Of a DNA stretch of 44,044 nt, positions 4,501-39,803 are shown one piece after another (position 1 is the first letter of the stretch; each line of letters begins with the position of its first letter). Both the position numbers and the translations under genes were made by a program. Source of the stretch: a virus. The DNA is taken from IMG/VR virus record IMGVR_UViG_3300029084_000003; one strand, given 5' to 3'. The notes under the pieces were generated by a model that worked only from the letters and a program-made list of their open reading frames with translations, searched no databases and had not been told where the DNA came from.

Positions 4501-6433
4501 CAAGAGCCTTTTTGCCCCACAATTCCCATATGGCTACACCGGCACCGACGACTGCTGTCACACCTAAAACAACTGGGACGATTGGTCCCAATGCCGCTAG
4601 CAAACCTGTTCCGCTCGCTGCGGCTCCGCCCATGGCCGCTCCCATTCCAGAAGCACCCTCTGCTGCCGCAGCCGCTGCAGGCGCAACCTTCAGTGCTTCA
4701 AAAGCTGTCTTACTAAACCCAGACTTGAGCACATCCATTGCAGTCCCGCCAATTTTTGCGGCTGTAGCGGCTCGTCCAATACCTCCCGTAACAGAAGCAA
4801 ATACAGTGGCACCGCCTTTAAGGATGTTGAGCATCCCGCCAAGAGAAGAACTTATAGGACCAATGACTGCTGCAAACAGTGCAAACTTAACGATTGACTG
4901 CTGAGTACCTGAGTCTAGCTTTCCGAACGCTTGCACCATTTGCGTTGCGGTTTTAATCATCGGTGTCAAAGCAGGTAGTAAGTTCTGGCCAATTTCGATG
5001 CCAAGGACTTGAATCGAGCTTTTGAGCTTGTTAAAGTTCGCAGCAGCGGTATTACCCATGGCATCAGATACTTTTTTAGTTGCCCCAGCAGCACTAGCAG
5101 TTTTATTAGTCAAATCAACCAGTGCAGAGCTACCTTGGTTCATTAATGCAAGCATAGCACGTCCACCACGCTCACCAAATGCAGCATTAACTGCGGCAAC
5201 CTTTTGAGCGTCAGACATACCTTTGGTTTTTTGTGTGACCTGATCGATGACTTCCGGCAAGCCAATCGTGCCTTTTTTGAAGGCTGCCACATTTACGCCG
5301 AGAGCAGACATAGGCGAATCGGCCTTTTCAGATGCACCAGCAAGCTTTTGCAACATCGCATTGAATGCTGTACCTGCCATTGATCCTTGCAGGCCTGCGT
5401 TCGATAGTAGGCCAATCGCTGCCACCGTTTCATTTAGCGAGATACCCGCCGCATTTGCTGATTGTCCAGTGTACTGCATGGCCTCGCCCATATCACCAAA
5501 GCCAGACTTGGTGGCATTAGCTGCATAAGTCATGGCATCGGTTACTTTTGACACATTACCCGCCTTGACATTGAACTGTGTCATCGTTGAGGTGACGACA
5601 TCCATTGTGGTGTTGAAGTCATCGCCAGAAGCGCGTGATGCGTCCAAGATTGCAGGCATCATTTTCATCGACTGATTAGCATCATAACCAGCACGAACTA
5701 AATCGGCCAATCCTTGGTTAATCTGAGTAGTCGAAATACCATATTGAACTGACCACTTTTTAGAAGCATCAGCCATTTGGTTAAGCTGCGCTTTGAACTT
5801 GCCAGTAACGGCTGCGCCATTTGTTAGCAGCGGGCCAATAGCATCAATCTGACTGTTGAAATCAATGGCTGACTTTGCAGCTGCTGCAAAGCCAACAGCT
5901 AATGGCGCAGTGACAGTTGCCGTCATTTTAGAGCCAAAACCTGTAAGCTTAGACCCGATTTTTCCTGTAGCAGTAGCAAATTTAGAGGCGCCGTTTGATA
6001 CTTTAGTCCAGCCGTCACTTTGCAGCGCAATCTCTTTGCGTAAGGCCGCCATTCGATTTTCATTTTGAGCAGCAGCGGCAGCAGTCCGATTATACTGTGA
6101 TGCAGCATTAGCTTGCAGCTTTGTAGCACGATTAATTTCTTCCTGCGATGCAGTCTCGCTTTTATTAAGTCTTTCAACCGCTTTCGAATTTTCATCATAC
6201 TGTTTTCGCTGTTTCTGAAGCTGAGCTTGGTAGTTCTTTGATTGGCGGCTCAATGTGTCATAGGTTGAACGCATGTTGTTGATAGACTTTTCAGAGCCCT
6301 TAAACGCAGCATCTTGAGCCCGCAACTCAGCGGCAGTTGCTTTAATTGAAGAATTCAAAACTCGCTGGCTTACTTGAAACGGATCAATGTTCAAACTTAC
6401 GGTAGCCGCAATTTGTCCGAGATTTCCTAACAT
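1580..6433 (-). CDS. Tail tape measure protein
   Basis: 1617 aa, coiled-coil N-terminus, Gly/Ala-rich hydrophobic segment, long internal repeats. Lies after the G/GT chaperones and before Dit. Confidence 0.9.
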   Translation of the reverse strand: MLGNLGQIAATVSLNIDPFQVSQRVLNSSIKATAAELRAQDAAFKGSEKSINNMRSTYDTLSRQSKNYQAQLQKQRKQYDENSKAVERLNKSETASQEEINRATKLQANAASQYNRTAAAAAQNENRMAALRKEIALQSDGWTKVSNGASKFATATGKIGSKLTGFGSKMTATVTAPLAVGFAAAAKSAIDFNSQIDAIGPLLTNGAAVTGKFKAQLNQMADASKKWSVQYGISTTQINQGLADLVRAGYDANQSMKMMPAILDASRASGDDFNTTMDVVTSTMTQFNVKAGNVSKVTDAMTYAANATKSGFGDMGEAMQYTGQSANAAGISLNETVAAIGLLSNAGLQGSMAGTAFNAMLQKLAGASEKADSPMSALGVNVAAFKKGTIGLPEVIDQVTQKTKGMSDAQKVAAVNAAFGERGGRAMLALMNQGSSALVDLTNKTASAAGATKKVSDAMGNTAAANFNKLKSSIQVLGIEIGQNLLPALTPMIKTATQMVQAFGKLDSGTQQSIVKFALFAAVIGPISSSLGGMLNILKGGATVFASVTGGIGRAATAAKIGGTAMDVLKSGFSKTAFEALKVAPAAAAAAEGASGMGAAMGGAAASGTGLLAALGPIVPVVLGVTAVVGAGVAIWELWGKKALESADRTSRWGTDIGADADRSASKMKDASGEISGAFDDTNHTVTQNAKTISKGFNDLTKAAKEAADQSETAAKKLAKSLGGEAADNIEKQAAKEKAANAKRIKEMESNNKKAQAITASFNKSGAQMTADQYQLLDNYRRKNAALAVKTLQISGSQQNNVLKAVLGERTRMSKSAALEQYQDMWNAANKENSAYKSQQAKINEEFKNDATMRHVALEGLERDHQNKMKSLYAGAIQAMKAQGTSRSEMLAELQTDFHLTASQAESAMNSYENAMAKGVKSNRDFAAATEGFGKAAQQAGDHWNNLVFDTKTGKVKTNLPEVLKDTASTKKGWKQLVFDLKYAKITSNAKQMIVEALASSEQWQKLSVPEKNAIIRTQGREQLADIMDKFVSWNSLSLKDQQVIVKGDYTPLVNALVKSGDWNNLTLKQQEAIVKDKATVPLVSSLQQTGEWQKLDLKVQEAIVNAKGKKDLEDIIFDMGVWNKLPNTQKYATLVSFGKQDIADIIDQLNLWNTLTPKEIKAVAKGDTSSLIAAIDKANDWNRLTLGQLEAIVKDKASAGLVQAMIKAGEWNGLSIEEKTAIMQTKGKSDLADMVVKYGLWNSLPNSTKSLLMNDSDARTKLEKAGVAIDQYNLFKNPNEKGLKANNTDVLGKTEEAKGSIQKYNEVLPGLKLFPADASKVKHESSSGGTSIAKYNEVLPGLKLFPGDSSSVTNHAEKGKEEIGSFNATNPLMRFFQGNSGSVDGASKSGKSSITSFNSKVPIMMFFNGNADGVSSASQIGVNAVAAFGGNATITKTFRISADIDPAVQRLLNSGKFARGTQNFTGGLATINDASGTRYQEVVTLPNGAKFVAYGRNVTLPLPRHTKIETAMQSARNYSIPRFAGGTTDFGGAANRINQLNPQTFVTSIYSGGNSRVEDLLARLIELTIYQINHTQRTEGKVVLENNREIGKWLYPTINELDKQNTIRERHGRGVY

Positions 6434-10888: not shown

Positions 10889-11527
10889 TTATTCGATGCC
10901 CTTGAGCAATTCCTCTTTATTCAGTTGATAAAGCATCTTGCGCCGCTTAAGTTCCCATTCTGGCGGCTGATCTAGCGCTTTTATCTGTTCCAACGATCGT
11001 GCTCCGACCTTTACCTCAGTGTCTGGATAAGCAGGTGTTGTCACCGGCGAAACATCAAACAGATGATCAATGTTGTTGATCGTGCGCTCGTATTTAACCC
11101 CTCGTTCGCTTGACTTTTGCCACTTTTGCGCGTCTTTGTCTGGTGCAATCGTGAATGCAAAGCTTGACTGGCTGATAATTCCCCGACGAACATTTTCTAA
11201 CAAATCACGCCCAAGCTGTGTATCTGGAGGTGTCAACGTATATTTGAGCCCCGTTTCATCAACCGTCAGCTCTAAATTGACTCCCGTGCGGCCTAACACT
11301 TGGTTCTGGTCATGATTAAATAGCGCAACAACGTTACTCATGTCCGCATTGTCCAGCGCGTGTGGGGCAATGCGTTCGCGGAAACTCAGCTCGCCACTGC
11401 CCATAATCTCGGATTGTCTGTCGAATTTAAGGGCATAGCCCTCAATAACGGCAGGGTGATTATCATCCCCATCACGAATTTGCATTGGTGTTGCCGTCAT
11501 TCGTAGTTCCTTTGCCATTAGCATCAC
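10889..11527 (-). CDS. Prohead protease (HK97 / S78 family)
   Basis: Reads AVIEGYALKFDRQSE...VALFNHDQNQVLGRT. Lies between portal and capsid. The exact start is uncertain (several Met at the N-terminus, overlaps the portal 3' end). Confidence 0.85.
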   Translation of the reverse strand: MMLMAKELRMTATPMQIRDGDDNHPAVIEGYALKFDRQSEIMGSGELSFRERIAPHALDNADMSNVVALFNHDQNQVLGRTGVNLELTVDETGLKYTLTPPDTQLGRDLLENVRRGIISQSSFAFTIAPDKDAQKWQKSSERGVKYERTINNIDHLFDVSPVTTPAYPDTEVKVGARSLEQIKALDQPPEWELKRRKMLYQLNKEELLKGIE

Positions 11528-15318: not shown

Positions 15319-16128
15319 TCAATTTTTGTAATTTTTATTTTTTATTTTCTTGAATTTTGCAAATTTGTTTTCTGATTTCATTTCGTCAAGTTTGTTCATC
15401 ACTTTGATGAGTTGACTCACATCTCGACCTTGCTTAGACAGTCTCTGGATGCATGTGTCTCGGTCAGTGTCGATGAGTATGTGTTCGACATCTCGACTAG
15501 CAAGCAATGTGTCTAGCTTCTCATCTGGATATGTCATGACTAACCACACATGGTCGAAGGTCTGCTCTGCTTTAAGCTTCCGCAGTATCAGCTCATAGAT
15601 TAGCTGCACATAATCATTGGCGTCTATATTGCCCTGATGTAATGGCAGGCCTGTTAACGCCGCCATAAGATGGTCGTAATCATAGACGAGGTCATGCTGT
15701 CCTTGATGTCGCTTGACGTAAGTTGACTTACCACTTGCTGGATAGCCAACGATTACTGTAATCTTCATGGCTCGATGCTGTCCCTTCTTACGCTTGGTTG
15801 TCTCACGTCTCGTCTTCCAATAGTGGCAGTCCCTGCATAAAGCCTGCAGATTATCCGCTTTCGTGCGGTCTTCCCAGTCATCTTCGCTTGGAACAATATG
15901 ATCAACCAATGAGGCTTGCAGGCCACAGCGTTGGCATAAACTGTTGTCTCTAATCAATATCTGCTCACGCAGCTGCTTCCATTCATTACTGTGATAGAAC
16001 CTAAGGTAGTCCGACTGCTGCTCATTCCGCACACGGTTGTACTGCCTATCCGCCTCCGATCTAACACGAGCATTTGCATCAACCAATTGTGGTCTGCCAT
16101 TTATAAAGGCAAGCTTCTTACTTGGCAT
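15319..16128 (-). CDS. HNH endonuclease fused to a P-loop kinase-like NTPase domain
   Basis: N-terminal half: CQRCG...VDHIVP...NLQALCRDCHYWKT (HNH). C-terminal half: MKITVIVGYPASGKSTYV (Walker A) with a later DTDRD motif. Confidence 0.75.
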   Translation of the reverse strand: MPSKKLAFINGRPQLVDANARVRSEADRQYNRVRNEQQSDYLRFYHSNEWKQLREQILIRDNSLCQRCGLQASLVDHIVPSEDDWEDRTKADNLQALCRDCHYWKTRRETTKRKKGQHRAMKITVIVGYPASGKSTYVKRHQGQHDLVYDYDHLMAALTGLPLHQGNIDANDYVQLIYELILRKLKAEQTFDHVWLVMTYPDEKLDTLLASRDVEHILIDTDRDTCIQRLSKQGRDVSQLIKVMNKLDEMKSENKFAKFKKIKNKNYKN

Positions 16129-16330: not shown

Positions 16331-16654
16331 CTAAATTGCCTCCGTGTATTGTTTGATCTTGTCAACCTGCAAGTCGCACCATTCATCATGTGTGCCGTCT
16401 GCCTTGTAGACTTTTACGACTGGCATTGAACGATAGCCTAGCTTGAGGAACCGTTCGTAGTCGTCCGCGTCTGCTGTGATGGTTGACACCGGCATTACTT
16501 GTGACAGCTTGAATATTGTTCGCCGACACTTTTGGCAGTGTGGCTTTGTGTAGATGATTGCTTGCATGTGTTTTTCTTCTCTCGATAGTTTCTCAATGAT
16601 TGCTTGCTCTGTGTGGCTTACATATCCGTAACCGACTCGCTTCATACCTGACAT
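16331..16654 (-). CDS. Glutaredoxin-like NrdH-type redoxin
   Basis: IIYTKPHCQKCRRT (CxxC) in a thioredoxin-fold-sized protein. The true start may be the internal MQAIIYTK. Confidence 0.65.
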   Translation of the reverse strand: MSGMKRVGYGYVSHTEQAIIEKLSREEKHMQAIIYTKPHCQKCRRTIFKLSQVMPVSTITADADDYERFLKLGYRSMPVVKVYKADGTHDEWCDLQVDKIKQYTEAI

Positions 16655-16988: not shown

Positions 16989-17090
16989 GTGAGCAGTGTC
17001 CTTTCTCCTCCAAGTCAACCGCTGCTGCTCACACAAGTATTTCGTTTTTTCATTCTTTTGGCTCTTGGACTGGTCTCTGAGGGCTTTTTT
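16989..17090 (+). ncRNA. Putative small RNA B (paralogous 5' hairpin to RNA A)
   Basis: Extended -10 TGCTAATAT (16974..16982). The hairpin GTGAGCAG...CTGCTCAC begins at +1 and has a CU-rich loop CCTTTCTCCTCC. Terminator hairpin plus T6 at 17085..17090. Confidence 0.3.
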
Positions 17091-17091
17091 G

Positions 17092-17120
17092 TTGCACTTT
17101 GTATAAGCTTATATGATAAT
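17092..17120 (+). promoter_or_regulatory. Promoter of the CsbD-like gene (TTGCAC-17 nt-GATAAT)
   Basis: TTGCAC 17092..17097, 17-nt spacer, GATAAT 17115..17120. The RBS AAAGGAGG follows. Confidence 0.55.
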
Positions 17121-17144
17121 TGATGTTAAAAGGAGGTAATATCT

Positions 17145-17363
17145 ATGAGTTTAGATGGTAAAGTCGACAGCACCAAGGACAAGATCTCCGGTAAAGCTAA
17201 AGAAGTTGAAGGCAAAGTAACGGGTGATAAGGCTCGTGAAACACAGGGCAAAGCAGAAGGAATACTTGGCAAGGCCAAGGAAAAGCTTGATGATGCCAAA
17301 GATGCTGTTAAAGATACAGTAGATGATGTGAAAAACAAGCTCAGCACAGATAAGAAAGACTAA
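17145..17363 (+). CDS. CsbD-family general stress protein (moron)
   Basis: 72 aa: MSLDGKVDSTKDKISGKAKEVEGKVTGDKARETQGKAEGILGKAKEKLDDAKDAVKD. This is the typical CsbD repeat pattern. It has its own promoter, RBS and terminator, on the strand opposite the lytic genes. Confidence 0.8.
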   Translation: MSLDGKVDSTKDKISGKAKEVEGKVTGDKARETQGKAEGILGKAKEKLDDAKDAVKDTVDDVKNKLSTDKKD

Positions 17364-17370
17364 TTAACTG

Positions 17371-17393
17371 GCCGGCAAACTGCCGGCTTTTTT
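17371..17393 (+). terminator. Intrinsic terminator of the CsbD-like gene
   Basis: GCCGGCA-aac-TGCCGGC followed by TTTTTT. Confidence 0.8.
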
Positions 17394-17454
17394 GTCGCCT
17401 TTTTAAACCTGTACAAATCCGGTACAAGAGTTTTACAGGTTTGATAAACTCAAT

Positions 17455-17543
17455 TGTTATACTAGTCGTGCAAGGTCGGTCCGCCTTGCAATCACACTTA
17501 CCCCCATACACGCCTTCAGTTCTGGGGAGCTGGAGGCTTTTTT
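17455..17543 (+). ncRNA. Putative small RNA with its extended -10 promoter
   Basis: TGTTATACT at 17455..17463. Hairpin TGCAAGG/CCTTGCA begins at +1 (17469). C-rich single strand ACCCCCA. Terminator GCCTTCAG/CTGGAGGC plus T6 (17512..17543). Confidence 0.35.
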
Positions 17544-17687
17544 GTTGCACAAAAATAGCACCTCACCGTTTGGCGGAGTGCTTTAGTAAATAAAAAGATG
17601 CCAAAGCGTCAATGCCAAATAATATCAACTTTCCCACCCGAAATCTGTGGGCATTGATCCCCGGCCGAGTCTAAAAACTCGGGTAGT

Positions 17688-18335
17688 TCAATTACCAGAG
17701 GACCATTCTTTAAATCTTCCGTTGATTCCGTCTATCCTCGCCCCCATCTTATGTGTATTAACTGATTTTCCCGAATCGATTCCTGCCACATAATCTTGCA
17801 ATTTGCTTTGAGCTATAACTATGTCACTATATGTGCTAATCTCGATTTTGTTGGTAATCGATATCAACTCCTTAGTGACGGCATCTGGATTCACACCTGG
17901 AGGAGTCATAGTAAAGAACTTTGGCTCATTTTCCTCAGGCAAGTACTCACGTTGAATATAACCTGCGTCAGTTTGTCCAAATGCCAAAGCCATGATTTTG
18001 TTACCATTCACTCCGCAAATAACAACAATTTGATTTACACAATTTCCATCTATGTCTTTTGCTCCCTTTAACGTTTCCTTAACAAACTGTTGGATCACAT
18101 TTACGTAAAGTTGCCAGTTTAACTGAGCTCCGTTGCTTTGAACATGTAATCGCTTTATGAAGTCCTTTATTATGTCAGCAACTTGAGCGTTTCCTGTAGT
18201 TGCGATCAAAATGTTTGATTCGGCTAACATAAATTTTTTATAGTTTTCCCCAACCGTTTTTGTTCCTTGAGACATTCTTCCATCTGCCACAATTGAGCAA
18301 AAGTCTTTAGTCAAAAATCCAGAAATAAAGCTCAT
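17688..18335 (-). CDS. Proteasome beta-subunit / HslV-like Ntn hydrolase (Ser1 nucleophile predicted)
   Basis: After Met removal, SFISGFLTKDFCSIVADGRMSQGTKTVGENYKKFMLAESNILIATTGNAQVAD aligns without gaps to the proteasome beta / HslV N-terminus. Residue 1 is Ser/Thr, and Asp17, Arg19, Lys33 and Gly47 are all in register. A later ICG...G segment also matches. The GSG loop is not conserved. Confidence 0.6.
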   Translation of the reverse strand: MSFISGFLTKDFCSIVADGRMSQGTKTVGENYKKFMLAESNILIATTGNAQVADIIKDFIKRLHVQSNGAQLNWQLYVNVIQQFVKETLKGAKDIDGNCVNQIVVICGVNGNKIMALAFGQTDAGYIQREYLPEENEPKFFTMTPPGVNPDAVTKELISITNKIEISTYSDIVIAQSKLQDYVAGIDSGKSVNTHKMGARIDGINGRFKEWSSGN

Positions 18336-18340
18336 TCCTA

Positions 18341-18396
18341 ATCACCTCAAAAAAATAGTACTCCAGCGTGAACTGGAATACTACATTGAGGTGATA
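18341..18396 (-). terminator. Intrinsic terminator nested in an outer stem that pairs with the downstream SD
   Basis: Minus strand: ATCACCTCAA-TGTA-GTATTCCAG-TTCACG-CTGGAGTAC-TA-TTTTTTT-GAGGTGAT-TAGGA-ATG. Inner hairpin plus T7 forms the terminator. The outer arms 18387..18396 and 18341..18350 are complementary and cover the RBS GAGGTGAT of the 17688..18335 gene. Confidence 0.6.
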
Positions 18397-18627
18397 TCTA
18401 ATGTTTTTGGAGTGACAGGCTCCAAAGCGAGCGGACGGAGTTGCACCTTCCTGTTTCAGCATTGAGTAACCGGTATCAATGCCTTCCCTTGTCTGCTGAT
18501 CGCATAATTGATGGCCGAGACCTAAAATAGCGCCATCATGAGCACGTCTGCTGCTTTCCCCATATCCCGTATCCATATGGAGCATTTCTGCAGCGGAGGT
18601 TTTCGCCGCAGTTGAGTCAACTTTGTA

Positions 18628-18704
18628 TGCAACCGGCGGGATTTGAACCCGCGACACCGACGCACGCGCGAACTATAGTCGGTGAGCCGATCTCAATCGG
18701 TTGC
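18628..18704 (-). ncRNA. tRNA-like module 1 (7-bp acceptor, T arm, 16-nt anticodon-position loop)
   Basis: GCAACCG AT TGAG-ATCGG-CTCA CCGAC-[TATAGTTCGCGCGTGC]-GTCGG TGTC GCGGG-TTCAAAT-CCCGC CGGTTGC A. The loop carries the palindrome CGCGCG. Confidence 0.45.
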
Positions 18705-18847
18705 TCCTGTTTCTGCTATCCGAGGCGATGGTTTCTGAGCCCTCGGTTACGGTGGTTCCCACATTGTCTTGAAGTGCAAGGCATGTGACCACGCTTTATA
18801 CTCGCCCACTAGTCCGCGCTAGCAAGCACGCTGGGCTTTACCGGTAA

Positions 18848-18945
18848 TATCGCTGGTCGGGATTTGCACCCGACATGAGCCATTGCCAGCCCCTCTTAAG
18901 CATGCGCATGTACTGGTTGGCGTCTACCTATTCCGCCACAGCGAC
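18848..18945 (-). ncRNA. tRNA-like module 2 (class II-like, oversized anticodon region)
   Basis: GTCGCTG TG GCGG-AATAGGTAGA-CGCC ... CCAG-[23 nt including the palindrome CATGCGCATG]-CTGG ... TCGGG-TGCAAAT-CCCGA ... CAGCGAT A. The D arm resembles tRNA-Leu, but there is no 7-nt anticodon loop. Confidence 0.45.
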
Positions 18946-19255
18946 ACGACACGAATCCTAGATACCGCGCTAGGCCGCTAACGCACAGACAAGTCTCTGG
19001 TGGGACATAATAGCCGTGTCTTGCTACCGTTTTGTATTGCTCGCTCTCCCAGTGTCAGATGGGGTCATCGCAATCTGTGTCCGGTCGCTAAACTGGACAA
19101 AGAACTGTGCCACGACCTGCCGTGGCTGGTCCCGCTCAACCGGGCAGCTCAGCCTCTAAGGAGGCATATAAGTTCACCCTGCTACTCATCGTCATGGTAG
19201 GCGTATTGGTATGTAGTGACGGTAGCTACTCCGTCACAGACCTTCACGGGTGATA

Positions 19256-19320
19256 TGTGGCATGCGGGAATCGAACCCGCCTGACTATCTCAGCCAGTCC
19301 TCATTGCCACGCCTTGCCAC
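19256..19320 (-). ncRNA. tRNA-like module 3 (acceptor + T arm + one hairpin; not a canonical tRNA)
   Basis: Minus strand: GTGGCAA..CTGGCTGAGATAGTCAG GCGGG-TTCGATT-CCCGC ATGCCAC A. The T loop is canonical. There is no D arm, and the anticodon-like loop is non-canonical. Confidence 0.45.
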
Positions 19321-19422
19321 AGCTTTATCATCACTGAGGCTCGGAGGAAAAATGCGGTGTCTCAGGTTTCTCACCTTTGGCACAATACCATCATAAGGCG
19401 GAAAAGCGTGTTTTTTGTTGCA

Positions 19423-19866
19423 TCATTGTTGCACGGATGTTGCAACTAGTTTCACTAGCGGACATATTTCAGCAAAAGCATAGAGAGCTTCTTGTGTTTG
19501 TCGCCAAAGGGTCGTTCGGTCAACATGCAAGTGGTCGGCTAACTGAAGGCTGGATTTACGTGTCGTCTTTGGAGTCAGATAGCTCTCAACTAAAATGATC
19601 CGGTAGTTTTCATTCTCTAGAGATTCAATGGCACCTTCACAGCACGCTATATAGTACAGCTCGTCAGCGTGTGATACGAGTTTGTCCTCGGCTTTATTTC
19701 CATAGCTGGGTGACTTGGGCATGCCGTCCATCACGGGGCTTCTGAGCGCTATTTTGGTGCGTTGAGCGAGCCGCTTGTGATGCCAGTAGTTCCCCAAGAC
19801 CTCTTTGGCGTTTTCAATTGTTTTGTCATGATCAATTGGGCTAAAATATCTCGTTGCTCGCACCAC
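19423..19866 (-). CDS. ArpU-family late transcriptional regulator
   Basis: About 147 aa. Reads NAKEVLGNYWHHKRLA... with a C-terminal sigma-region-4-like SSLQLADHLHVDRTTLWRQTQEALYAFAE. Probable start is the GTG at 19866, 8 nt after AAGGAG. Confidence 0.7.
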   Translation of the reverse strand: MVRATRYFSPIDHDKTIENAKEVLGNYWHHKRLAQRTKIALRSPVMDGMPKSPSYGNKAEDKLVSHADELYYIACCEGAIESLENENYRIILVESYLTPKTTRKSSLQLADHLHVDRTTLWRQTQEALYAFAEICPLVKLVATSVQQ

Positions 19867-20030
19867 TGCGTCCACTCCTTATGGTATAATTAAATTTGTA
19901 AAAGTTTGGGGAAACGGCGTGCCGTAATGGTGCGCTTTTGTTTTTTGTGATATACTTACTGTTCAAATAATTCGATTTGATAGACTGAGTCGTCCTGTTA
20001 ATCCGGGGCGACTTTTGCTATACTACCTTT

Positions 20031-38080: not shown

Positions 38081-39379
38081 TTACCTGATGTATAGACTTT
38101 CGCCAGGGTAGATCAGGCTGTAGATTGACTTGCCGTTGTTAGCGGCTAACGTGTACATGCTAATGCCATACTTGCTGGCAATGCTCCAGAAGCTGTCACC
38201 ATATCGAACCGTGTAGTACGTGTGACTTGATACGGCCACTGAATAGCCACCAGAGACACGCAATACATCGCCTGGGTGAATCACACTGTAGATTGACTTA
38301 CCGTTGTTAGAAGCCAAAGTATACATGCTCATGCCATATTTGTAAGCAATCGACCACCAACTGTCACCAGACTGAACCGTGTAGGTAGAGCCATAGCTTA
38401 CTGATGACACGCTGGTCGTTGTCAGCAGCTCAACATTGCTTCGGTTGATCCAGCTCATGATGCCACCAAGCAATACGTTTGACCCAGATACTTGCTGAAC
38501 AGTGTACGTCTTGCCCTGAACCCAGCTAGGCATTGCGACACCATTAGCCCAACGGGTTGTGCCGAAGTTTACCTTAACACTATCACCAACTTTGATCTGG
38601 CTAAGCGTGGTATTGTTAGCTTTCTGGCCTGCTTTTGTCGCTGGTGTGCTCGTAGCAGGCTTAACATAAGTTTTACCACTACCTGTTGTCGTGCTACCGT
38701 TGTAGCCTGAATCAGTGATGCCGGTTAGATCAACGTTGCCATCAAGGCCGCCAGCGCGATAGGTGGAAGTGAACTGGAAGATACCTACATTGTCAAAACT
38801 CGGGAAGTAGCCATAATTCGGCACGGTAGTGACATTGTAATCAGGATATTCAGCAAGCCATAACTGATAGCGGCTGGCAATCTGTGACAAGTCAATGTGG
38901 CTCATCAAGAAGCTCTTATAGCCGTAAAGCATTGGTGTGTAACCAGCATCACGAACGTAGTCGAGCGCCCACAGCAAAGTTGCCGTGTTTGTTGACCCAG
39001 CTTCGTAGTCAAGCGCAACAATCGATCCTTTTGGCGTTTGAACTTCAGGCAAGAAATGATCTAGCACTTGCTTGGCCAAATTGGTGTTATCGATATTCTG
39101 CCACCAAATATAGGTGTGAGCCCGCTTGCCAGCGGCAATCAAGGATGCAACCTGTGTCTTGTACGTGGTTTGCTCATATGTGCCGTAGCCGCTATAGCCA
39201 CCGATTTGAGAGATGCCGAACTTGTCAGTGGAATAACCAAAGACACCGTTATCTCCTTGGTACCGGCTCCAGTCGACACCTTGGTCTCCCTTGGCCGCAT
39301 TGACCTGCGATGGCAGGGCAAAAGAAATAGCCGCCAAGAAGGCGACTACCAAGGTGATTAGTTTAGTTTTAAATTTCAT
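38081..39379 (-). CDS. Endolysin: signal peptide + GH25 muramidase + SH3b-like region + 2 LysM
   Basis: Start MKFKTKLITLVVAFLAAISFALPSQVNA|AKGD after AAGGAGG. GVDWSRYQG is the GH25 motif. Two C-terminal YTV..GDS.WSIA.KYG.SMYTLA.NNGKSIYS.I.PG..L LysM repeats. Confidence 0.85.
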   Translation of the reverse strand: MKFKTKLITLVVAFLAAISFALPSQVNAAKGDQGVDWSRYQGDNGVFGYSTDKFGISQIGGYSGYGTYEQTTYKTQVASLIAAGKRAHTYIWWQNIDNTNLAKQVLDHFLPEVQTPKGSIVALDYEAGSTNTATLLWALDYVRDAGYTPMLYGYKSFLMSHIDLSQIASRYQLWLAEYPDYNVTTVPNYGYFPSFDNVGIFQFTSTYRAGGLDGNVDLTGITDSGYNGSTTTGSGKTYVKPATSTPATKAGQKANNTTLSQIKVGDSVKVNFGTTRWANGVAMPSWVQGKTYTVQQVSGSNVLLGGIMSWINRSNVELLTTTSVSSVSYGSTYTVQSGDSWWSIAYKYGMSMYTLASNNGKSIYSVIHPGDVLRVSGGYSVAVSSHTYYTVRYGDSFWSIASKYGISMYTLAANNGKSIYSLIYPGESLYIR

Positions 39380-39389
39380 GGTGCCCTCC

Positions 39390-39803
39390 TTATTGCTGTG
39401 GAGCAACAGATGCCGGAGCTGACTCCGCCGGTGCTGAAGAAGACGTCTCTGGAACCACTTCACTAGCAGCAGTTACCTGGTCAGCCTCTTTATCCGCTTG
39501 CAGTGCCTTAATCTGATCCTCTAGCGCCTTGATCTTAGCTGCCTTGGTGGTAATGAGTGCCGGGTAAGCTAACGCCTGCTGACTATCACTAACGCCCTCC
39601 GTGGTTGGATCAACCGCTACCCCGACAATGGTCAATAATGCAAACACTGCATTGACCACTGCAGTGAGTTCTTTACCCAAACTAGCAAAGTCCCAGTTGT
39701 AACCGAAGACTGCCGCCACCGTTTGAATCACCAACAAAGAAGCTGGCACAATGGCCAGCCAGAATTTGACGCTTAATACTCGTACTTTCCAATTAATCTT
39801 CAT
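39390..39803 (-). CDS. Holin (phi LC3 / Phage_holin_1-like)
   Basis: MKINWKVRVLSVKFWLAIVPASLLVIQTVAAVFGY...VDPTTEGVSDSQQALAYP is the characteristic pattern. Ala/Ser/Pro-rich tail. Confidence 0.7.
   Translation of the reverse strand: MKINWKVRVLSVKFWLAIVPASLLVIQTVAAVFGYNWDFASLGKELTAVVNAVFALLTIVGVAVDPTTEGVSDSQQALAYPALITTKAAKIKALEDQIKALQADKEADQVTAASEVVPETSSSAPAESAPASVAPQQ

What the first reader, a model, noticed from the sequence alone, without database searches (positions are those of the whole stretch)
17688..18335. Orphan proteasome-beta / HslV-like Ntn hydrolase encoded directly downstream of the large RNA
After removal of the initiator Met, the 215-aa product aligns without gaps to the N-terminal catalytic half of proteasome beta subunits and HslV. 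Ser at position 1 replaces Thr1. Asp17, Arg19, Lys33 and Gly47 fall at exactly the canonical positions (SFISGFLTKDFCSIVADGRMSQGTKTVGENYKKFMLAESNILIATTGNAQVAD). A later ICG...G block also matches. The distal GSG loop is not conserved.

No HslU-like or other unfoldase partner is present in the genome. Proteasome-type peptidases are not standard siphophage cargo. The gene is the only protein-coding gene sandwiched between the candidate giant RNA and a plus-strand moron block, which suggests a functional unit (RNA plus peptidase) rather than a structural or replication role.
Basis: partly seen in the sequence, partly recalled or inferred. Interest (0 to 1): 0.7.

Follow-up and report, generated by a model that had tools for sequence, protein, structure and literature searches.

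The report
Orphan proteasome-like peptidase, swappable phage cargo
A temperate Lacticaseibacillus phage carries a stand-alone relative of the proteasome's catalytic subunit with serine as its cutting residue; it is not tied to the neighbouring RNA region but is one of at least nine interchangeable accessory genes, some of them known or candidate anti-phage genes, that sit behind the same ribosome-site-masking hairpin.

Summary
ORF 17688-18335 (-) encodes a 215-aa protein that starts Met-Ser. Ser2, Asp18, Lys34 and Gly48 match Thr1, Asp17, Lys33 and Gly47 of proteasome beta subunits.

- **Family conservation:** Asp18, Lys34 and Gly48 are invariant in 30 relatives; Ser2 is Ser in 29 and Thr in one.
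- **Sequence:** a family profile hits only proteasome/HslV chains in the PDB (best E 1.4e-10).
- **Structure:** an AlphaFold model (pLDDT 93) matches 20S beta subunits (TM 0.61-0.68).

The "RNA plus peptidase unit" idea is not supported. The window is a temperate Lacticaseibacillus phage, 99.8% identical to R3.1 over the 3-kb stretch compared. The upstream 1.09-kb spacer is a mosaic of tRNA-like remnants. It shrinks to about 286 nt in other phages that carry the same gene. Only its last 60 nt are constant: a hairpin with a U-run whose outer stem pairs an anti-SD with the gene's ribosome-binding site.

That junction precedes at least nine different cargo genes in related phages, including AbiN and PADLOC candidate PDC-M11A. 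Distant homologues sit beside lysis cassettes or after ArpU in other Bacilli prophages, always alone and never with an unfoldase.

Best reading: an exchangeable accessory Ser1 Ntn peptidase, possibly an inter-phage conflict effector. It belongs to the published class of orphan proteasome homologues (Fuchs et al. 2021). Its function is untested.

The parts
17688..18335 (-). CDS, 215 aa: proteasome-beta-fold N-terminal nucleophile (Ntn) hydrolase. Predicted catalytic residues are Ser2 (Ser1 after Met removal), Asp18 and Lys34, with oxyanion-hole Gly48. Family-specific invariant Q176 and a near-invariant S/T-V-N motif at 191-193.
   Evidence: ORF; PHROG 13232 full-length match at 3.6e-150; Pfam PF00227 at 2e-4; family alignment; profile against PDB; AlphaFold2 pLDDT 93.4; Foldseek against PDB.
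18336..18395 (-). Conserved 60-nt cassette junction ('module F'). Outer stem: 18395-18386 (AUCACCUCAA, an anti-SD that is the Watson-Crick complement of the SD and, from memory, resembles the 3' end of 16S rRNA) pairs with 18350-18341 (UUGAGGUGAU, the gene's SD). Inner 13-bp hairpin: 18384-18372 with 18367-18355, followed by a U-run, so it looks like a terminator. Then UAGGA and the ATG.
   Evidence: Terminator-like site. Fold gives dG -30.6 kcal/mol, z -6.7, 0 of 200 shuffles as good. The same element precedes different genes. Four inner-stem pairs show compensatory changes and 95.7% of cells are paired. The same architecture stands in front of the 37%-identical homologue in L007.
18396..19422 (-). 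Context, not part of the unit: a mosaic non-coding spacer between the ArpU-like gene and the junction. Module A (19422-19255) is shared by nearly all relatives compared. The middle ~860 nt is variable and dispensable. It holds tRNA-like elements at 18704-18625 and 19321-19256, plus a third T-arm-like motif near 18870.
   Evidence: Module map. No ARAGORN tRNA. No Rfam gathering-level hit. Weak tRNA/tmRNA-like hits. The equivalent position holds an annotated tRNA-Ile in iLp84 and a 41.5-bit tRNA in L007.
19423..19875 (-). Context: upstream gene, an ArpU-family late-transcription regulator by the annotation of orthologues. Three TGCAACA repeats with an 11-nt period span its stop codon (19444-19416).
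   Evidence: Orthologous genes are annotated ArpU in BH1, iLp84 and T25 records. Pfam itself gave no hit. The repeats were read directly from the sequence.
17145..17363 (+). Context: a convergent CsbD-like moron with its own terminator at 17370-17388. It bounds the peptidase gene on its 3' side.
   Evidence: Pfam CsbD 1.3e-12; terminator scan. It is also present next to a different cargo gene in BH1.

Best explanation
**What it is.** The gene encodes a self-contained peptidase of the proteasome-beta (MEROPS T1-like) Ntn-hydrolase superfamily.

**Inferred mechanism.**
- Host methionine aminopeptidase removes Met1. Ser at position 2 is a good MetAP substrate, and there is no propeptide.
- The free Ser1 amino group and hydroxyl then act as nucleophile and base.
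- Asp17 and Lys33 form the charge relay, and the Gly47 amide forms the oxyanion hole.
- It works without any AAA+ unfoldase.

**Genomic status.** It is not a core phage function and not a partner of the upstream RNA. It is an exchangeable accessory (moron-type) gene. In Lacticaseibacillus phages it occupies a cargo slot downstream of the ArpU-like regulator and a variable tRNA / tRNA-remnant spacer.

The slot begins with an invariant 60-nt hairpin. That hairpin looks like an intrinsic terminator and also base-pairs an anti-SD with the cargo's ribosome-binding site. Read-through transcripts are therefore predicted to be translationally masked.

The same junction carries at least nine alternative cargo genes. 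These include the abortive-infection gene AbiN, the PADLOC candidate PDC-M11A and a weakly TIR-like protein.

**Most likely role (inferred, about 40%).** A stand-alone effector in phage-phage or phage-host conflict, such as prophage-encoded exclusion or abortive infection, acting by cleaving a specific cytoplasmic target.

**Shown here:** fold, catalytic-residue conservation, solitary status, slot exchangeability, hairpin conservation.
**Inferred:** Met removal, activity, oligomeric state, expression timing, biological role.
For: **Identity.**

**No partner.** None of seven homologue contexts examined has an AAA+ neighbour or a second proteasome-like gene. The window has its own S78 prohead protease and no unfoldase.

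**Accessory status.**
- The gene is in only 6 of the 47 INPHARED records that share the spacer.
- The family is tiny: 32 clusters at E below 1e-3 among 1.84 billion representatives. Every member with a named source is from Bacilli.
- Its position differs between lineages:
  - after ArpU in Lacticaseibacillus phages, L007 and Lysinibacillus phage SDFMU_Pfc;
  - between tail genes and the holin or lysins in Bacillus gobiensis and Enterococcus prophages;
  - after the endolysin at the prophage end in Leuconostoc;
  - chromosomal between queA and obg in Lactococcus taiwanensis.

**Slot.** An identical junction precedes different genes.

**IMG/VR census of the hairpin pattern.** 60 loci, 59 with a cargo ORF, in 9 cargo families:
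- 286-aa unknown: 21
- Ntn hydrolase: 8
- 333-aa weakly TIR-like: 7
- 126-aa unknown: 7
- AbiN: 6
- PDC-M11A: 3
- 141-aa unknown: 3
- 221-aa protein with a hydrophobic N-terminal stretch: 2
- 89-aa unknown: 1

**Slot-mates with defence links.** AbiN at E 1.4e-33; PDC-M11A at E 1.2e-113; TIR effector at E 3.9e-4. AbiN is an experimentally described lactococcal phage-resistance gene (PMC13064643).

**Hairpin.**
Against: - No enzymatic or phenotypic data exist.
- PADLOC has no model matching the protein.
- The defence role rests only on guilt by position. Most cargo families in the slot have no known function, and the TIR hit is weak.
- The gene is co-oriented with the lytic genes in every context, and no convincing promoter of its own was found. 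This fits a lytic-cycle function at least as well as lysogenic expression.
- The Ser129/Asp166/Ser169 network of canonical proteasomes is not conserved, so catalytic competence is not guaranteed.
- Proteasome-type active sites normally need ring assembly, which could not be modelled here.
- The hairpin census used an exact pattern, so the invariance of the stem bases is partly by construction.
Confidence: 0.55

Rival explanations
1. Lytic-cycle helper or counter-defence protease. The peptidase is made during lytic growth, as the first gene after the ArpU-dependent region or next to the lysis genes. It degrades a host protein such as an immunity factor, a stress protease substrate or a regulator, to the phage's benefit.
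For: The gene is co-oriented with late or lytic genes in every context seen. It sits directly downstream of an ArpU-family late regulator in three independent lineages. No promoter of its own was detected. Patchy accessory distribution also fits anti-defence genes.
Against: The slot-mates include AbiN and a PADLOC defence candidate rather than known anti-defence genes. The strong terminator-like, SD-masking hairpin argues against simple high late expression. No target is known.
Confidence: 0.25
2. One reading: the large upstream non-coding RNA and the peptidase form one functional unit, for example an RNA scaffold, guide or regulator for the protease.
For: The two are adjacent on the same strand in the window. 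A distant homologue (L007, 37% identity) also follows a spacer with a tRNA and the same hairpin.
Against: The spacer varies from about 286 to 1087 nt in front of 95-100% identical genes. The same spacer modules and junction precede at least eight other cargo families. Homologues in four other lineages lack any such RNA. The spacer is best read as tRNA genes or remnants. A terminator-like hairpin separates it from the gene.
Confidence: 0.04
3. Lysis-associated enzyme. The Ntn hydrolase acts with holin and endolysin, for example on peptidoglycan stem peptides, on a lysis regulator, or on an endolysin precursor.
For: In Leuconostoc, Enterococcus and Bacillus gobiensis prophages the homologue directly abuts the holin or endolysin genes.
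Against: In the window, L007 and SDFMU_Pfc it lies far from the lysis cassette; the window's lysin is at 38081-39463. The catalytic Ser must be residue 1, so there can be no signal peptide. The borders of lysis cassettes are classic moron insertion sites. The gene is absent from most related phages that lyse normally.
Confidence: 0.07
4. Not a hydrolase in vivo. It could be a connectase-like sequence-specific transpeptidase or ligase, or a catalytically weak binding protein that has kept the fold.
For: Connectase is a monomeric proteasome homologue that ligates rather than degrades (PMC7980362, listed; discussed in PMC8665760). The canonical Ser129/Asp166/Ser169 network is replaced by family-specific motifs, Q176 and S/T-V-N.
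Against: Connectase lacks helices H1/H2 and has a two-helix insertion. This model has both helix pairs and no such insertion. The nucleophile, Asp, Lys and Gly are strictly conserved, which argues for catalysis.
Confidence: 0.07

Closest known systems
20S proteasome beta subunit (Pfam PF00227, MEROPS family T1)
   Same: Same alpha-beta-beta-alpha Ntn fold (Foldseek TM 0.61-0.68, E about 1e-9). The nucleophile at residue 1, Asp17, Lys33 and Gly47 are in identical register. The strand ending in the conserved Gly (G108) is shared.
   Different: Ser replaces Thr as nucleophile in 29 of 30 family members. There is no propeptide (Met-Ser start) and no alpha subunit or second subunit gene. The Ser129/Asp166/Ser169 (GSG) network is not conserved. 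The protein scores just below Pfam's gathering cut-off. The gene is phage-borne and solitary.
HslV (ClpQ), the bacterial two-ring peptidase activated by HslU
   Same: Met-Thr/Ser start exposed by Met removal without a propeptide. The Asp-Gly and Lys positions align (hhalign columns 7-62 against 7-63). PHROG 1040 'peptidase HslV family' is a weak hit at E 0.02.
   Different: No HslU in the window or beside any homologue. The family profile scores 20S beta far better than HslV (1e-10 against about 4e-3). It is about 40 aa longer, with an extra C-terminal beta-hairpin. There is no NCBIfam HslV hit.
Orphan proteasome-like homologues catalogued by Fuchs, Alva and Lupas 2021 (PMC8665760): Firmicute clusters FC1-FC5 and the phage-associated PPH and AAH
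   Same: A small, phylum-restricted family with the Thr1/Ser1-Asp17-Lys33-Gly47 core, no AAA+ partner, no informative gene neighbourhood and unknown function. The members here are all Bacilli.
   Different: Membership in a specific cluster could not be tested because the representative sequences could not be retrieved. That paper does not flag FC1-FC5 as phage-borne, whereas seven of the eight contexts examined here (window included) are phage or prophage. PPH is about 140 aa and lacks helix H2; this protein is 215 aa with both H1 and H2.
Single-gene prophage or chromosomal abortive-infection genes such as lactococcal AbiN
   Same: It occupies exactly the same cassette position, behind the same 60-nt hairpin and RBS junction, as an AbiN homologue and as PDC-M11A in sister phages. 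It is a solitary gene with patchy distribution.
   Different: No sequence or fold relation to any known Abi or PADLOC model. No phenotype has been shown. AbiN itself is mechanistically uncharacterised.

Membership tests
Proteasome-like Ntn hydrolase superfamily (PF00227 / MEROPS T1) | Four-layer alpha-beta-beta-alpha Ntn fold superimposable on 20S beta | tested here: met
   AlphaFold2 pLDDT 93.4, pTM 0.89. The top 50 Foldseek PDB hits are 20S proteasome chains, nearly all beta subunits, at probability 1.00 and TM 0.60-0.68.
Proteasome-like Ntn hydrolase superfamily (PF00227 / MEROPS T1) | Thr/Ser nucleophile as the first residue of the mature chain | tested here: met
   Met-Ser start; Ser in 29 of 30 and Thr in 1 of 30 relatives, all aligned from residue 1. 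Actual removal of Met1 is not testable with these tools.
Proteasome-like Ntn hydrolase superfamily (PF00227 / MEROPS T1) | Asp/Glu17, Lys33 and Gly47 in register with the nucleophile | tested here: met
   D18, K34 and G48 are invariant in 30 of 30. The register offset is -1 against mature yeast beta1.
Proteasome-like Ntn hydrolase superfamily (PF00227 / MEROPS T1) | Score at or above Pfam's curated gathering threshold | tested here: not met
   The protein scores 21.4 bits against a 22.4 cut-off. Fifteen of 30 relatives match at E of 0.01 or better, best 1.1e-7. The family profile reaches 1.4e-10 against PDB beta subunits.
Proteasome-like Ntn hydrolase superfamily (PF00227 / MEROPS T1) | Ser129 / Asp166 / Ser169 (GSG loop) network supporting Thr1 | tested here: not met
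   Sequence alignments stop before this region. The family has LxP(P) at the loop before H3 and an S/T-V-N motif after H4.
Proteasome-like Ntn hydrolase superfamily (PF00227 / MEROPS T1) | Peptide-bond hydrolysis; ring assembly | not testable with these tools
   Needs biochemistry and a multimer model or structure.
HslV (ClpQ) | Cognate HslU AAA+ unfoldase encoded with it or in the genome | tested here: not met
   No AAA+ unfoldase among the window's large ORFs or next to any homologue.
HslV (ClpQ) | Match to HslV-specific family models | tested here: not met
   NCBIfam gave only a 12.8-bit archaeal beta-subunit hit. PHROG 'HslV family' scored E 0.02. PDB HslV chains score about 4e-3 against 1e-10 for 20S beta.
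Canonical 20S proteasome beta subunit | Partner alpha subunit and N-terminal propeptide | tested here: not met
   A single gene in every context. The chain starts Met-Ser with no propeptide.
Firmicute clusters FC1-FC5 of Fuchs et al. 2021 | Firmicutes-restricted proteasome-like homologue without an AAA+ partner | tested here: met
   Members come from Lacticaseibacillus, Leuconostoc, Enterococcus, Lactococcus, Lactiplantibacillus, Bacillus and Virgibacillus. No AAA+ neighbours were found.
Firmicute clusters FC1-FC5 of Fuchs et al. 2021 | Sequence clustering with a published representative (WP_075525441.1, WP_000217171.1, WP_098409529.1, WP_076223917.1, WP_106036939.1) | not testable with these tools
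   The accessions are listed. None appeared among the cluster members read, and the sequences cannot be fetched.
PPH (proteasome homologue of phages and their hosts) | About 140 residues, lacking helix H2, proteobacterial phages | tested here: not met
   The protein is 215 aa. Both H1 (50-66) and H2 (74-88) are predicted. The hosts are Firmicutes.
Anti-phage defence gene (single-gene Abi-like) | Located in a hotspot shared with known defence genes | tested here: met
   The same junction carries AbiN (E 1.4e-33), PDC-M11A (E 1.2e-113) and a weak TIR hit. Census.
Anti-phage defence gene (single-gene Abi-like) | Match to a known defence-protein model | tested here: not met
   PADLOC returned 0 families.
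Anti-phage defence gene (single-gene Abi-like) | Protects cells or populations from phage infection | not testable with these tools
   Needs plaque or efficiency-of-plating assays.

The most novel reading that the evidence does not exclude
A proteasome-fold Ser1 Ntn peptidase acts on its own, without rings of alpha subunits or an unfoldase, as a prophage-encoded anti-phage (exclusion or abortive-infection) effector. It is delivered in a 'locked' cassette whose conserved hairpin both terminates upstream tRNA-region transcription and masks the ribosome-binding site until some infection-linked event opens it. This would be the first proteasome-type protease assigned to phage-bacterium conflict, and the first function for any of the orphan Firmicute or phage proteasome homologues.
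Probability: 0.3. Interest if true: 0.7.

Novelty: new member of a known kind. Interest (0 to 1): 0.45.

Why it matters
Orphan proteasome homologues without unfoldase partners were catalogued in 2021, with no functional clue and no informative gene context. This family supplies a context. It is almost entirely phage-borne and moves between classic accessory-gene positions. In Lacticaseibacillus phages it is interchangeable with an AbiN homologue and a defence candidate behind one conserved regulatory hairpin.

That turns "function unknown" into a cheap, direct experiment. Express or delete one 648-bp gene, with a Ser2Ala control, in a well-studied dairy or probiotic host and challenge it with phages.

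The cassette junction itself (anti-SD, hairpin, SD) is a compact, reusable marker for mining further accessory or defence cargo in Lactobacillaceae phages. If the experiments are negative, the finding remains an ordinary moron of a known superfamily.

Tried and rejected
- **Single-sequence AlphaFold2:** unusable model, pLDDT 41. Replaced by the alignment-based model.
- **Word-indexed homologue search with the single protein:** found only near-identical sequences. The exhaustive HMMER search was needed.
- **The search for related loci with the family alignment:** The single-protein scan of genome representatives found only L. zeae.
- **Rfam at gathering thresholds:** nothing in the window, so the spacer is not GOLLD, ROOL or another curated large RNA. 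ARAGORN found no tRNA at default settings and only dubious intron-bearing calls when relaxed.
- **FC1-FC5 membership:** attempted through accession numbers of cluster members, with no match. Unresolved.
- **PDB sequence searches of two slot-mates** (333 aa and 286 aa): nothing found. Pfam gave nothing for six cargo families.
- **Prohead-maturation protease:** rejected because the phage has its own Peptidase_S78 at 10889-11527.
- **A promoter for the gene:** the consensus scan found none on the minus strand between 18336 and 19422. Manual inspection of the hairpin for an embedded promoter was unconvincing, so expression timing stays open.
- **Literature searches** for a described function of phage or Firmicute proteasome homologues, or a defence role: nothing beyond PMC8665760.
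Full report
**1. What the window is**

The stretch 17000-20000 is 99.8% identical to Lacticaseibacillus phage R3.1 (OP807344, Junavirus) and R29.1. In those records every gene of the region is annotated "hypothetical protein". The window has an integrase, a GH25-LysM endolysin, a DnaB-type helicase, an AAA_24 protein and an S78 prohead protease. It is therefore a temperate siphophage or prophage of the L. casei group.

**2. The observation**

The ORF 17688-18335 (-) exists as described: 215 aa, ATG start, GAGGTGA ribosome-binding site.

- It is a full-length member of PHROG 13232, function unknown (E 3.6e-150).
- On its own it scores just under Pfam's Proteasome threshold: 21.4 against 22.4 bits, E 2e-4.
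- It gives only weak single-sequence PDB hits.
- An exhaustive HMMER scan of 1.84 billion cluster representatives found 32 relatives at E below 1e-3. They are 184-221 aa and nearly all align from residue 1.
- The 30-sequence alignment has invariant M1, D18, K34, G48 and Q176. S2 is Ser in 29 and Thr in 1. G19, G108, V192 and N193 are near-invariant.
- A profile of this alignment hits 165 PDB sequences. The 60 listed are all proteasome beta/alpha or HslV chains, best 1.4e-10. The register is offset by -1 against mature yeast beta1, so S2, D18, K34 and G48 correspond to Thr1, Asp17, Lys33 and Gly47.
- Fifteen of the 30 members hit PF00227 individually.
- With the alignment, AlphaFold2 gives pLDDT 93.4 and pTM 0.89. 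The top 50 Foldseek PDB matches are 20S proteasome chains, nearly all beta subunits, at TM 0.60-0.68.

The observation and the fold assignment are confirmed. The GSG/Ser129 loop is indeed not conserved. The family instead has its own invariant Q176 in helix H4 and an S/T-V-N motif in the loop after H4.

**3. Is it tied to the upstream RNA?**

No.

The 1087-nt spacer (18336-19422) has no Rfam family at gathering level and no ARAGORN tRNA. It does contain tRNA-like T-arm and acceptor elements.

BLAST against related phages shows it is a mosaic. The first 168 nt after the upstream gene and the last 60 nt are shared by nearly all relatives compared. The middle ~860 nt comes and goes.

Among phages and IMG/VR prophages that carry the same peptidase gene at 95-100% identity, the spacer is about 286, 311, 513, 597 or 1087 nt. 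Conversely, 47 phage records share spacer modules but only 6 carry the gene.

At the equivalent place, iLp84 has an annotated tRNA-Ile. The distant phage contig L007 has a tRNA scoring 41.5 bits. The "giant RNA" is therefore best read as a phage tRNA-gene region with decayed copies, not a partner of the peptidase.

**4. The cassette junction**

The constant last 60 nt fold into a two-tier hairpin with dG -30.6 kcal/mol, z -6.7 and 0 of 200 shuffles as stable.

- The inner tier is a 13-bp stem followed by a U-run. The scan reports it as terminator-like.
- The outer tier is a 10-bp stem in which AUCACCUCAA pairs with UUGAGGUGAU, which is the gene's Shine-Dalgarno.

The same element, up to the ATG, precedes unrelated genes in iLp84, A2, BH1, P7.1 and R10.1/R23.9.

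Across 11 distinct variants, 95.7% of cells pair and four inner-stem pairs show compensatory double changes. Much of the stem was fixed by the search pattern, so its invariance is partly by construction. However, L007, which was found through its 37%-identical protein, has the same architecture with a compensated upper stem.

An exact-pattern scan of IMG/VR returned 60 loci, 59 with a cargo ORF. The ORF after the junction falls into nine families:

| Cargo family | Loci | Annotation |
|---|---|---|
| 286 aa | 21 | unknown |
| Ntn hydrolase | 8 | this finding |
| 333 aa | 7 | weak PADLOC TIR effector hit, E 3.9e-4 |
| 126 aa | 7 | unknown |
| 207 aa | 6 | PADLOC AbiN, E 1.4e-33 |
| 141 aa | 3 | unknown |
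| 355 aa | 3 | PADLOC PDC-M11A, E 1.2e-113 |
| 221 aa | 2 | hydrophobic N-terminal stretch (read by eye), otherwise unknown |
| 89 aa | 1 | unknown |

AbiN is an experimentally described lactococcal phage-resistance gene of unknown mechanism (PMC13064643). The peptidase is thus one of many mutually exclusive cargoes of a hotspot that demonstrably carries defence-type genes.

**5. Homologues elsewhere**

| Host or source | Position of the homologue |
|---|---|
| Leuconostoc prophages | directly after the endolysin, at the prophage end |
| Enterococcus casseliflavus prophage | between tail genes and the Amidase_2 lysins |
| Bacillus gobiensis prophage | between tail genes and holin plus Amidase_3 |
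| L007 phage contig | between the early genes and small terminase, behind a tRNA and the same hairpin |
| Lysinibacillus phage SDFMU_Pfc | first gene after an annotated ArpU regulator, with a 450-nt gap |
| Lactococcus taiwanensis | chromosomal, between queA and obg |

The gene is always single, co-oriented with late genes, and never beside an AAA+ protein or a second proteasome-like gene. All members with source names are Bacilli. Some databases already label fragments "20S proteasome alpha/beta subunit", "Ntn hydrolase family protein" or "Proteasome endopeptidase complex". Truncated 134-aa alleles are common.

**6. Mechanism**

Shown:
- the proteasome-beta fold;
- strict conservation of the nucleophile, Asp, Lys and oxyanion Gly;
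- absence of a propeptide;
- absence of partners;
- exchangeability of the gene;
- conservation of the masking hairpin.

Inferred from established knowledge of Ntn hydrolases and MetAP specificity: Met1 is removed to expose Ser1, which attacks peptide bonds with Lys33/Asp17 assistance.

Not known: oligomeric state, substrate and expression timing.

I commit to this reading: an accessory, self-sufficient Ser1 peptidase whose most likely role is as an effector in phage-phage or phage-host conflict. My estimates are about 40% for defence or exclusion, about 25% for a lytic-cycle helper or counter-defence role, and smaller shares for a lysis accessory or a connectase-like ligase.

**7. Comparison with the known**

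Fuchs, Alva and Lupas (2021, PMC8665760) catalogued many orphan proteasome-like families. These include five Firmicute clusters (FC1-FC5) and the phage-associated PPH and AAH. All have the Thr1/Ser1-Asp17-Lys33-Gly47 core, no AAA+ partner, no informative context and no known function.

This family fits that class. Whether it is one of FC1-FC5 could not be tested. It is not PPH, which is about 140 aa and lacks H2. It is not HslV, because there is no HslU and the profile is closer to 20S beta. It is not a canonical beta subunit, because there is no alpha subunit, no propeptide and no GSG network.

BFVD contains 29 viral proteins with this fold at E below 1e-3, all at 16% identity or less. Proteasome-like cargo in phages is therefore uncommon but not unprecedented.

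**8. Verdict**

Novelty: a new member of a known kind. The added value is the phage-borne, hotspot context and the conserved SD-masking cassette junction, which make a function directly testable.

Interest 0.45.

Noticed in passing
window 18336-18395 (-); also L007 7940-8000, L014, L015, L017-L020, L035-L094: A 60-nt two-tier hairpin (anti-SD, terminator-like stem with U-run, SD) is conserved as the junction in front of at least nine unrelated cargo genes in Lacticaseibacillus phages. It also stands in front of the 37%-identical homologue on a distant phage contig. It may act as both terminator and translational lock, and as the recombination point for cargo exchange.
   Followed up: partly
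window 18396-19422 (-): elements at 18704-18625, about 18880-18860 and 19321-19256: The 'giant RNA' spacer contains three T-arm/acceptor-like tRNA remnants. The one at 18704-18625 has a 7-bp acceptor stem and a T-arm but an oversized anticodon region. None passes ARAGORN or the Rfam tRNA threshold. Sister phages have real tRNAs at the same place: iLp84 tRNA-Ile and a 41.5-bit tRNA in L007. Part of the spacer also matches the tRNA region of the 140-kb myophage Lbab1.
   Followed up: partly
window 19416-19444 (-): Three TGCAACA direct repeats with an 11-nt period straddle the stop codon of the ArpU-like gene. They are followed about 25 nt later by TATGATGGTATTGT. This may be an activator-binding site with a late promoter. 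Lysinibacillus phage SDFMU_Pfc has four copies of CTGTACTCTAATTAGrGTACAC at the analogous place (L095 about 4690-4785).
   Followed up: no
window 17145-17363 (+), terminator 17370-17388: A CsbD-like general-stress-protein gene (Pfam CsbD 1.3e-12) lies on the opposite strand with its own terminator, a typical moron. It is also present in BH1 and C3.1. A CsbD gene also lies near the homologue in a Leuconostoc prophage (L004 8832-9026), which may be coincidence.
   Followed up: no
window about 17430-17545 (+): A short plus-strand unit: a promoter-like TTTACA-N17-TATACT (read by eye) followed by a strong terminator at 17512-17537 and no ORF. It may be a small RNA, convergent with the peptidase gene's 3' end.
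   Followed up: no
L018 (phage P7.1) 1331-2398; L074; L048: Sister phages carry a PADLOC PDC-M11A homologue (355 aa, E 1.2e-113) or an AbiN homologue (207 aa, E 1.4e-33) in the same slot. These are prophage-encoded defence candidates in L. casei-group phages that are annotated only as hypothetical.
   Followed up: partly
proteins P0002, P0052, P0053; cargo lengths: Truncated 134-aa alleles of the peptidase gene, identical for about 126 residues and then divergent, recur on dozens of contigs. This suggests frequent inactivation of the gene in prophages.
   Followed up: no
window 15319-16128 (-) and 16331-16654 (-): A fusion of an HNH endonuclease with an AAA_33 kinase-like domain (269 aa) lies just upstream of the terminase genes. 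A weakly glutaredoxin-like 107-aa ORF lies beside it.
   Followed up: no
proteins P0006 (2121 aa) and P0012 (1099 aa): Two very long metagenomic proteins match short pieces of the query many times: 15 and 5 stretches, for example query residues 3-35. They are probably repeat or assembly artefacts and were not examined.
   Followed up: no
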